From NCBI RefSeq assembly GCF_009931435.1, contig NZ_CP043414.1: 64,000 nt of DNA; one strand, 5' to 3'. Below are positions 8,313 through 9,074 of the stretch, piece after piece. The translations under genes and the position numbers were made by a program. A model generated the notes under the pieces. That model ran no database searches. It had not been told where the DNA came from and saw only the letters and a program-made list of their open reading frames with translations. Numbering within the stretch: position 1 is the first letter of the stretch; each line of letters opens with the position of its first letter. This stretch comes from Escherichia coli (lineage in GTDB: Bacteria; Pseudomonadota; Gammaproteobacteria; Enterobacterales; Enterobacteriaceae).

Positions 8313-9074
8313 TTAGAAATCATAACCAAGCATATAAATCATTTGATCGCCAAAGCCATCGTAGCCCAGCTTATTATCGAAATAACGCCACGTCACACTG
8401 GCTTTCCAGCGAGGATAGAACTTCCAGGCAATAGTTAAACCGCCATTTAACCCGTTCCGGCCAAATTGCTGCTCCGTGTAAGCATCGTTCCTGTCCAGTT
8501 CTATTTCATTCCAGTTAGATAAAACAAATTTTTCGTCAAATAACATAAATGGCAATACTGCTGTCCAGCCAACAACATAACCATTCCAACCATTCGTTTG
8601 ACCATATTTAGCTGATACGTAGTCACCAGATTGATTATGTAATCCAATATACGGTTTAAAAAAGCCCCACTCGCCGTTCCAGCCGAGGTAACCGAATCCA
8701 TAAAACATGTCCAGATCGTCACCCCATGAGTTATCCCATTGGCCATAAATTTTGCCAAAGAATGTCATATCAGAGTCAAAGAGTCTGACATGCGTCATTG
8801 CTGAAACCGTATGATTTCTCCCTGCTACAGCATGATTGAGTACATTACTTTCATAAAATGAGTAAAATTCTGCTTCTTTAAAATTTACCCCAAAATCCGC
8901 AGTCACTTTCCATACTTCACCACGGTGAGTGTTTACAAATCCACTATTCCAGTCTGCATAACCCGCATTTATTGAACCAAAGGTTCCTTTATATTCTAAT
9001 GAAGAATATGCAGGAAAATGATAGATAGCTGTTATCAGGGTACACGCAATAAGAAGTCATCTTTTGGCAGACAT
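8313..9074 (-). pseudogene. Tsx/OmpK-family outer-membrane channel with in-frame TGA at codon 6
   Basis: Reading frame MSAKR-TGA-LLIACTLITAIYHFPAYS (signal peptide) then beta-barrel-like sequence ending YDF, resembling Tsx; TGA at 9057-9059 where a Trp codon would fit; the supplied ORF 8313-8906 begins at an internal GTG. Confidence 0.6.

What the first reader, a model, noticed from the sequence alone, without database searches (positions are those of the whole stretch)
9057..9074. In-frame TGA at codon 6 of the Tsx-like porin signal peptide
The porin frame reads ATG TCT GCC AAA AGA TGA CTT CTT ATT..., that is MSAKR-stop-LLIACTLITAIYHFPAYS. A single TGG-to-TGA change would give a canonical signal peptide (MSAKRWLLIACTL...). 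The gene is therefore either a recent nonsense pseudogene, a sequencing error, or expressed at low level by readthrough (TGA followed by C is a leaky context). No downstream in-frame ATG or GTG would yield an intact signal peptide.
Basis: seen in the sequence. Interest (0 to 1): 0.4.

Follow-up and report, generated by a model that had tools for sequence, protein, structure and literature searches.

The report
Clone-specific nonsense mutation in porin gene
One clonal lineage of E. coli carries a real single-base change (CGA to TGA) that puts a stop codon at codon 6 of an accessory Tsx/OmpK-type outer-membrane channel gene, making it an ordinary young pseudogene.

Summary
On the minus strand the gene at 8313..9074 reads ATG TCT GCC AAA AGA TGA C.., with the stop at 9059..9057. 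It lies in the E. coli dnaJ-hokC / nhaA island, just upstream of a periplasmic sulfatase.

About 1270 of 5426 complete E. coli genomes carry this gene intact, starting at the same ATG.

It is not a sequencing error. Nine independent assemblies carry the identical allele on flanks 0-1 SNP from the window; they include a complete chromosome and six raw-read assemblies. This is one clone, and one record names it O88:H4.

The exact intact ancestor protein is far commoner: 1984 index blocks against 25.

There is no SECIS-like structure, no canonical in-frame start before codon 57, and no pseudo-revertants. Only basal UGA readthrough could give residual product, roughly 0.1-2% by the literature, and this was not tested.

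Other rare knockouts of the gene exist (G45*, Y142*, a 1-nt deletion). None of the four occurs in complete RefSeq genomes.

Verdict: a real, ordinary, lineage-specific pseudogene of low interest.

The parts
8313..9074 (-). Tsx/OmpK-family outer-membrane channel gene (253 codons plus stop), interrupted at codon 6; a pseudogene in this lineage
   Evidence: Translation. Intact 762-nt orthologues annotated 'outer membrane protein OmpK' start at the same ATG. The repaired protein hits Pfam Channel_Tsx at 50.1 bits against a cutoff of 27.2. AF2 model pLDDT 91; top PDB match Tsx 1TLW.
9057..9059 (-). Premature TGA (opal) at codon 6, followed by C at 9056; derived from CGA (Arg6) by a C>T transition at CDS nucleotide 16
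9072..9074 (-). ATG start codon, shared with all annotated orthologues
9085..9088 (-). GGAG Shine-Dalgarno, 10 nt upstream of the ATG, invariant in the five aligned alleles
   Evidence: read directly from the sequence
9003..9074 (-). Signal-peptide coding region (about codons 1-24: n-region MSAKR[R], h-region LLIACTLITAIY, likely cleavage AYS|S); the stop falls in the n-region
   Evidence: Alignment of 23 homologues. N-terminal helix at residues 3-18 in the AF2 model. The cleavage site is inferred from the -3/-1 rule, not computed.
8904..8906 (-). GTG at codon 57, the first canonical in-frame start after the stop. Gene callers use it to call a 197-aa 'hypothetical protein' that lacks a signal peptide.
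6799..8292 (-). Intact downstream sulfatase gene (497 aa, Sec signal peptide, SxPxR motif SSPSR). It starts 20 nt after the porin stop and has its own AGGGA ribosome-binding site; probably the second gene of the operon.
6721..6751 (-). Terminator-like hairpin (14 pairs) followed by a T-rich tail, after the sulfatase stop; likely end of the operon
   Evidence: consensus scan only; terminator-like sites are not enriched over shuffles

Best explanation
A single C>T transition changed codon 6 of an accessory Tsx/OmpK-family outer-membrane channel gene from CGA (Arg) to TGA. The mutation is fixed in one clonal E. coli lineage, to which the window belongs. Ribosomes start at the normal ATG, make the pentapeptide MSAKR and terminate. 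No canonical start follows until codon 57, beyond the signal peptide, so no exportable channel is made apart from basal UGA misreading. The gene is a young loss-of-function pseudogene: the rest of the frame is still intact and differs from common intact alleles by only 1-3 synonymous sites. The sulfatase downstream stays intact with its own ribosome-binding site, but it has probably lost its dedicated outer-membrane entry route. Shown: the mutation, its ancestral state, its reality, its clonality and the family of the gene. Inferred: loss of the protein, and the functional link between the channel and the sulfatase.
For: The TGA lies in frame at 9059..9057. Orthologues in about 1270 of 5426 complete E. 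coli genomes are intact, are 762 nt long and use the same ATG. Codon 6 is CGA/CGG in four E. coli alleles, and Arg in E. albertii. Nine of ten loci that carry the 197-aa downstream ORF have the identical TGA allele, with no CDS differences and 0-1 SNP over 3.8-6.6 kb of locus. These sources are GCA_013900085.1 (CP057959.1), GCA_035607835.1, GCA_054240625.1 and six SRA-run assemblies. The exact ancestor protein (Arg6, otherwise identical; P0001) exists in 1984 index blocks against 25 for the truncated product. Intact alleles differ from the window CDS only by C16T plus 1-3 synonymous sites. Between the distant allele groups, 59-60 codons differ synonymously and only 11-13 non-synonymously, so the gene is normally under purifying selection. 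All 23 aligned homologues need the N-terminal signal peptide, and none starts downstream of it. There is no in-frame ATG/GTG/TTG before codon 57.
Against: No expression data exist, so residual full-length protein from UGA-C readthrough cannot be excluded. Reported levels are 1e-3 to 1e-2 (PMC4989110) and about 2% at 37 C in a K-12 reporter (PMC10570021). The frame has no second lesion, so continued weak selection cannot be ruled out from sequence alone. With only 0-1 SNP among carriers there is no power to test this.
Confidence: 0.88

Rival explanations
1. Leaky allele: the UGA-C at codon 6 is read through by Trp-tRNA (or translation restarts nearby). This would give a low but biologically meaningful level of MSAKRW... 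pre-protein with a working signal peptide, so the gene would be attenuated rather than dead.
For: UGA is the leakiest stop codon in E. coli and Salmonella, at 1e-3 to 1e-2 (PMC4989110), and about 2% at 37 C and 4% at 25 C in a K-12 reporter (PMC10570021). UGA-C is reported as the weakest termination tetranucleotide in E. coli (Poole et al. 1995, own knowledge; cited in PMC9841425 but not readable here). Trp at position 6 would leave K4 and R5 in the n-region. The rest of the ORF is intact.
Against: The stop occurs in one clone only, and every other allele has Arg. No stimulatory structure follows it (fold z = -0.58). The mutation is too young for an intact frame to mean anything. The K-12 figures come from a strain with a weak RF2 variant, and natural isolates terminate better (own knowledge). 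Lys at the -2 position is reported to favour termination at UGA (Mottagui-Tabar et al. 1994, own knowledge). A 1-2% residual level is a knock-down, not a design.
Confidence: 0.07
2. Selected loss: the knockout was favoured because the channel is a receptor for a phage or colicin, as Tsx and Vibrio OmpK are, and the clone rose after escaping that attack.
For: Vibrio OmpK is the receptor of phage KVP40, and its deletion gives resistance (PMC4471561). Tsx is the receptor for T6 and colicin K (own knowledge). Several independent knockouts of this same gene exist: G45*, Y142* on at least 24 contigs, and a 1-nt deletion in a T6 run in three assemblies.
Against: All these knockouts are rare. None of the four is in any complete RefSeq E. 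coli genome that matches the probe (0/635, 0/928, 0/292, 0/1103). That fits ordinary mutation-selection balance in a very large sample. No phage or colicin is known to use this E. coli protein. This reading concerns why the mutation spread and is compatible with the best explanation.
Confidence: 0.2
3. Sequencing or assembly error: the true sequence is CGA.
For: A single-base difference from all 635 complete genomes that match the 57-mer probe. No exact match to the 36-mer in the species-representative genome collection.
Against: The identical allele is present in three NCBI assemblies and six independently assembled SRA runs from different accession series. It is a substitution, not a homopolymer indel.
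Confidence: 0.01
4. Programmed recoding: the TGA encodes selenocysteine or is otherwise a designed recoding site.
For: None beyond the presence of an in-frame TGA.
Against: Orthologues have Arg, not Cys or Sec, at this position. The 70 nt that begin at the TGA fold no better than shuffled sequence (z = -0.58). Rfam finds only the sok RNA in 8000..10000. A redox residue in the n-region of a signal peptide has no rationale.
Confidence: 0.005

Closest known systems
E. coli 'outer membrane protein OmpK' (RefSeq WP_001274833.1, WP_103253536.1, WP_001274823.1 and relatives) in the dnaJ-hokC / nhaA accessory island
   Same: Same gene, same position, same ATG and same length. The repaired window protein is identical to a protein found on at least 1000 contigs (P0001) and differs by 1-2 residues from the two closest RefSeq proteins examined (WP_103253536.1, WP_001274833.1) and by 11-13 from the distant allele group.
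   Different: The window allele has TGA instead of CGA at codon 6, so it cannot make the pre-protein.
Tsx, the nucleoside-specific channel of E. coli (PDB 1TLW/1TLY; Pfam PF03502)
   Same: Pfam family match above threshold. The predicted structure is a barrel of about 12 strands whose best solved match is Tsx (E 5e-7, TM 0.63). It ends in a C-terminal Phe.
   Different: Only about 12% identity in the structural alignment, and no hit by sequence search of the PDB. The Pfam match covers only the C-terminal 60% of the protein. The substrate is unknown, and the pairing with a sulfatase suggests something other than nucleosides (inference).
Vibrio OmpK, receptor of phage KVP40
   Same: Homologous over the full length (about 50% identity to Vibrio members), with the same size and the same signal-peptide architecture.
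   Different: No phage is known to use the E. coli protein, and its genomic context (a sulfatase operon) differs.
Lineage-specific nonsense pseudogenes of accessory genes in Enterobacteriaceae
   Same: A single premature stop in an otherwise intact frame, confined to one clone, with intact alleles dominant in the species.
   Different: Nothing distinctive, apart from the very early position (codon 6) and the weak UGA-C context.

Membership tests
Tsx/OmpK channel family (Pfam PF03502) | Profile match above Pfam's gathering score | tested here: met
   Repaired protein scores 50.1 bits against a cutoff of 27.2, E 3.9e-13, residues 106-253. Precomputed PF03502 hits on nearly all full-length homologues.
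Tsx/OmpK channel family (Pfam PF03502) | 12-stranded beta-barrel fold like Tsx | tested here: met
   AF2 model with pLDDT 91.1 and pTM 0.80, about 12 strands. Top Foldseek PDB hit is Tsx 1tlw_B, E 5.2e-7, TM 0.63/0.64.
Tsx/OmpK channel family (Pfam PF03502) | Cleavable N-terminal Sec signal peptide that can be translated with the barrel | tested here: not met
   The signal peptide is encoded, but TGA at codon 6 cuts it off from the rest, and no canonical start follows before codon 57. Orthologues have it intact.
Tsx/OmpK channel family (Pfam PF03502) | Channel activity, substrate specificity and phage-receptor role | not testable with these tools
   Needs liposome-swelling or uptake assays and phage or colicin tests.
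Nonsense pseudogene | Premature in-frame stop where intact orthologues have a sense codon | tested here: met
   TGA against CGA/CGG in the four aligned alleles, and 0 of 635 matching complete genomes carry TGA.
Nonsense pseudogene | The lesion is real, i.e. reproducible in independent data | tested here: met
   Nine independent assemblies carry the identical allele.
Nonsense pseudogene | Loss of the protein product | not testable with these tools
   Needs a Western blot, proteomics or a reporter fusion. Basal UGA readthrough of 0.1-2% is expected from the literature (PMC4989110, PMC10570021).
Selenoprotein gene / programmed UGA recoding | SECIS-type stem-loop just downstream of the UGA | tested here: not met
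   MFE -7.4 kcal/mol against a shuffle mean of -6.15, z = -0.58. No Rfam match.
Selenoprotein gene / programmed UGA recoding | The UGA (or Cys) conserved at the site in orthologues | tested here: not met
   Arg in all Escherichia orthologues, other residues in more distant homologues, never Cys.
Programmed stop-codon readthrough gene | Stop codon conserved across diverged orthologues with coding constraint downstream | tested here: not met
   The stop is confined to one clone with 0-1 SNP of diversity. No W/G/L/S/C variants at codon 6 exist in the protein collection.

The most novel reading that the evidence does not exclude
The early UGA-C is kept in this clone as a leaky attenuator. Stochastic, condition-dependent readthrough (higher at low temperature or with raised tRNA-Trp, as in PMC10570021) would give a few cells a working channel while most cells lack a potential phage receptor. 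That would be bet-hedging by translational error rather than by phase variation.
Probability: 0.03. Interest if true: 0.45.

Novelty: already known. Interest (0 to 1): 0.08.

Why it matters
It matters little beyond annotation. In this lineage the gene should be marked as a pseudogene (Arg6>opal) and not as a 197-aa 'hypothetical protein', which is how gene callers currently record it. The allele is a clean marker for the clone. It also provides a natural isogenic contrast (TGA against CGA on a nearly identical allele) for anyone who wants to test what this uncharacterised channel-plus-sulfatase pair does, or to measure UGA-C readthrough in a natural isolate.

Tried and rejected
- **Sequencing error:** rejected, because the identical allele is in nine independent assemblies.
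- **TGG as the ancestral codon:** rejected, because orthologues have CGA/CGG.
- **Alternative canonical starts:** none before codon 57. ATT, CTG, ATA and ATC codons lie within codons 9-17, but they sit 34 nt or more from the Shine-Dalgarno. I did not take this further (inference).
- **The ATG overlapping the stop (AGATGAC):** it opens the other frame and ends after 23 codons (MTSYCVYPDNSYLSFSCIFFIRI*), so it rescues nothing.
- **SECIS or other RNA element:** none found.
- **Pseudo-revertants at codon 6 (W, G, L, S, C):** none in 15 billion proteins.
- **Exact 36-mer scan of species-representative genomes:** 0 hits. This is uninformative, since the collection holds one genome per species.
- **PDB search by sequence:** no hit at E <= 1. 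The fold search was needed instead.
- **Rho polarity:** the untranslated porin mRNA is G-rich (C/G below 1 in all 78-nt windows beyond the first ~120 nt). There is no obvious rut site, so I make no claim of polarity on the sulfatase.
- **'Recurrent inactivation' as a notable pattern:** toned down, because none of the four knockout alleles is present in complete RefSeq genomes.
- **Literature on this island:** one search found nothing specific.
- **Papers not held:** Poole et al. 1995 and Cridge et al. 2006.
- **CP057959.1:** not in the annotated collections, so its official annotation could not be read.

Full report
**1. The observation**

The minus strand of window 9074..9048 reads ATG TCT GCC AAA AGA TGA CTT CTT ATT. 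The ATG is at 9074..9072, the TGA at 9059..9057, and the next base is C. A GGAG Shine-Dalgarno lies 10 nt upstream, at 9088..9085.

After the TGA the frame stays open for 247 more codons, to TAA at 8315..8313. The mechanical ORF list shows that the first ATG/GTG/TTG in this frame after the stop is GTG at 8906, which is codon 57. The observation, its coordinates and the 'no rescuing start' remark are all correct.

**2. What the gene is**

The window is an E. coli-type chromosome segment with the order fimbrial remnants, nhaR, nhaA, a 414/416-aa ORF, a sulfatase, this gene, sokC/mokC/hokC, dnaJ, dnaK ... thrABC.

The gene is accessory. A 1-kb probe finds it in 1273 of 5426 complete E. coli genomes, always on the chromosome, annotated 'outer membrane protein OmpK'. 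In the four genomes I opened the CDS is intact, 762 nt long, and starts at the position equal to window 9074.

With codon 6 repaired, several lines place the protein in the Tsx/OmpK family:
- It matches Pfam Channel_Tsx at 50.1 bits against a gathering score of 27.2.
- A 23-sequence alignment gives an AlphaFold model with pLDDT 91, consisting of an N-terminal helix and about 12 strands.
- The best solved match of that model is Tsx, 1TLW (E 5e-7, TM 0.63).
- A plain sequence search of the PDB finds nothing, so the relationship to Tsx itself is distant.

Homologues occur in E. albertii, Salmonella, Citrobacter, Vibrio (about 50% identity) and Klebsiella (about 35%). All of them begin with a Lys/Arg-containing n-region, a hydrophobic core and an Ala-X-Ala-like site just before a conserved (L)E(Y/L)K motif. 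None starts downstream of the signal peptide.

The gene sits 20 nt upstream of an intact 497-aa sulfatase. That sulfatase has its own signal peptide and ribosome-binding site, there is no terminator between the two genes, and a terminator-like hairpin follows the sulfatase. A channel-plus-periplasmic-sulfatase operon is the natural reading. This is inference.

**3. What the mutation is**

In alleles that differ from the window by 0.6% to 9% in DNA, codon 6 is CGA or CGG, giving Arg and the n-region MSAKRR. E. albertii has MSARRR. The event is therefore CGA>TGA, a C>T transition at CDS nucleotide 16.

**4. Real or error?**

A 57-nt probe across the site matches 635 complete genomes. Every one differs by exactly one base, and none carries the TGA. 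The species-representative collection has no exact match either.

However, the 197-aa ORF that gene callers make from GTG 8906 is on record from about 25 index blocks. Of the ten loci returned, nine have the identical TGA allele, with no differences in the 762-nt CDS and 0-1 SNP over 3.8-6.6 kb of locus. They come from three NCBI assemblies, including the complete chromosome CP057959.1, and six separately assembled SRA runs from different accession series. One NCBI record names the organism E. coli O88:H4.

The allele is real and marks one clone. The window itself is only about 98% identical over 25 kb to the nearest complete RefSeq genome, so this clone is simply not represented in that collection.

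**5. How young?**

The exact protein with Arg6 and everything else identical (P0001) exists in 1984 index blocks. The DNA of seven such loci differs from the window CDS only by C16T plus one to three synonymous sites. The nonsense change is therefore a recent step on a common allele.

Between the two main allele groups, 59-60 codons differ synonymously and 11-13 non-synonymously. The gene is normally under purifying selection, and the stop is a departure from that.

**6. Alternatives to plain loss of function**

- *Selenocysteine or designed recoding.* The 70 nt starting at the UGA fold no better than shuffles (z = -0.58). Rfam finds only sok in 8000..10000. Orthologues have Arg at the site. 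Rejected.
- *Other starts.* There are no canonical ones. The ATG that overlaps the stop (AGATGAC) opens another frame, which ends after 23 codons.
- *Readthrough.* UGA is the leakiest stop, at 1e-3 to 1e-2 (PMC4989110). A K-12 reporter gives about 2% at 37 C and 4% at 25 C through competition between Trp-tRNA and RF2 (PMC10570021). UGA-C is reported as the weakest tetranucleotide (Poole et al. 1995, from my own knowledge; the paper is not held). A trace of MSAKRW... pre-protein is therefore plausible. Nothing suggests more than basal leak: the stop is confined to one clone, no W/G/L/S/C variants of codon 6 exist among 15 billion proteins, and the 0-1 SNP of diversity gives no power to detect continued selection.
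- *Polarity on the sulfatase.* The untranslated RNA is G-rich, with C/G below 1 beyond the first ~120 nt. I make no claim here.

**7. Is loss of this gene a pattern?**

Other knockouts exist:
- GGA>TGA at codon 45, on a nearly identical allele joined to a divergent sulfatase (L011).
- TAT>TAA at codon 142, on at least 24 contigs.
- A 1-nt deletion in the T6 run at nucleotides 407-412, in three assemblies.
- Several further frameshifted products, some of which may be assembly errors.

Probes for the three verified alleles, like the one for TGA6, match no complete RefSeq genome exactly (0/928, 0/292, 0/1103, 0/635). These are rare, sporadic lesions in a very large sample. They are compatible with ordinary mutation-selection balance.

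Selection for receptor loss is conceivable, since Vibrio OmpK is the KVP40 receptor (PMC4471561) and Tsx is the receptor for T6 and colicin K (own knowledge). It is not demonstrated here.

**8. Verdict**

This is a real, clone-specific CGA>TGA nonsense mutation that turns an accessory Tsx/OmpK-family channel gene into a young pseudogene. It is an ordinary event of a well-known kind. Its practical value is for annotation and as a lineage marker.

Noticed in passing
L011:483-1247 (SRR6840802); L016-L019 (gene at L016:1501-1926); L020-L022 (gene at L020:1501-2073): Independent knockouts of the same porin gene in other E. coli backgrounds. They are GGA>TGA at codon 45; TAT>TAA at codon 142 (at least 24 contigs, on two downstream haplotypes); and a 1-nt deletion in the T6 run GGC TTT TTT AAA (window equivalent about 8657-8662) in three assemblies. 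None is in any complete RefSeq genome.
   Followed up: yes
window 5300-9600 compared with L023, L025, L026, L001: The island is a recombination mosaic. The porin CDS and the first ~500 nt of the sulfatase (7800-9050) are 96-100% identical per 150-nt bin (99-100% through most of the stretch) across haplotypes. The rest of the sulfatase and the 414-aa gene drop to 70-92%. The region upstream of the porin (9150-9450) is only 45-78% identical in most haplotypes, yet 100% identical in strain 24A16CRGN010, so there are two very different promoter-region versions.
   Followed up: partly
window 66-3005 (+): Remnants of a chaperone-usher fimbrial operon next to nhaR. The chaperone ORF is only 136 aa, and the usher is split into 115-aa and 318-aa ORFs where about 850 aa would be expected. 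The nearest complete genome annotates these as frameshifted or incomplete pseudogenes. The porin is therefore not the only decayed accessory gene in this neighbourhood.
   Followed up: partly
window 5426-6676 (-): A 414/416-aa ORF downstream of the sulfatase has no Pfam hit on record. RefSeq names it inconsistently: 'hypothetical protein', 'transposase (frameshifted)', and 'IS1/IS1595 family N-terminal zinc-binding domain-containing protein'. Strain 24A16CRGN010 carries a 268-bp deletion in it.
   Followed up: no
window 6799-8292 (-), protein residues about 78-83: The sulfatase has the Ser-type motif SSPSR (LSSPSRAGLLTGR). It should therefore need an anaerobic sulfatase-maturing radical-SAM enzyme, and none is encoded next to it. 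Its best NCBIfam matches (arylsulfatase, choline-sulfatase) are far below their cutoffs, so the substrate is unknown.
   Followed up: no
window 9536-9838 (+): A complete hokC/mokC-sokC type I toxin-antitoxin locus (Rfam sok 116.9 bits against a gathering score of 59). In this haplotype no IS element lies between it and dnaJ, unlike in L028, where an IS (DDE_Tnp_1) lies there.
   Followed up: no
protein collection, cluster of P0001/P0006: The 90%-identity cluster that holds the porin sequences has a 497-aa sulfatase as its representative and mixes the two unrelated proteins (7513 members). This is probably a clustering artefact, and the cluster's member and contig counts should not be read as porin counts.
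   Followed up: no
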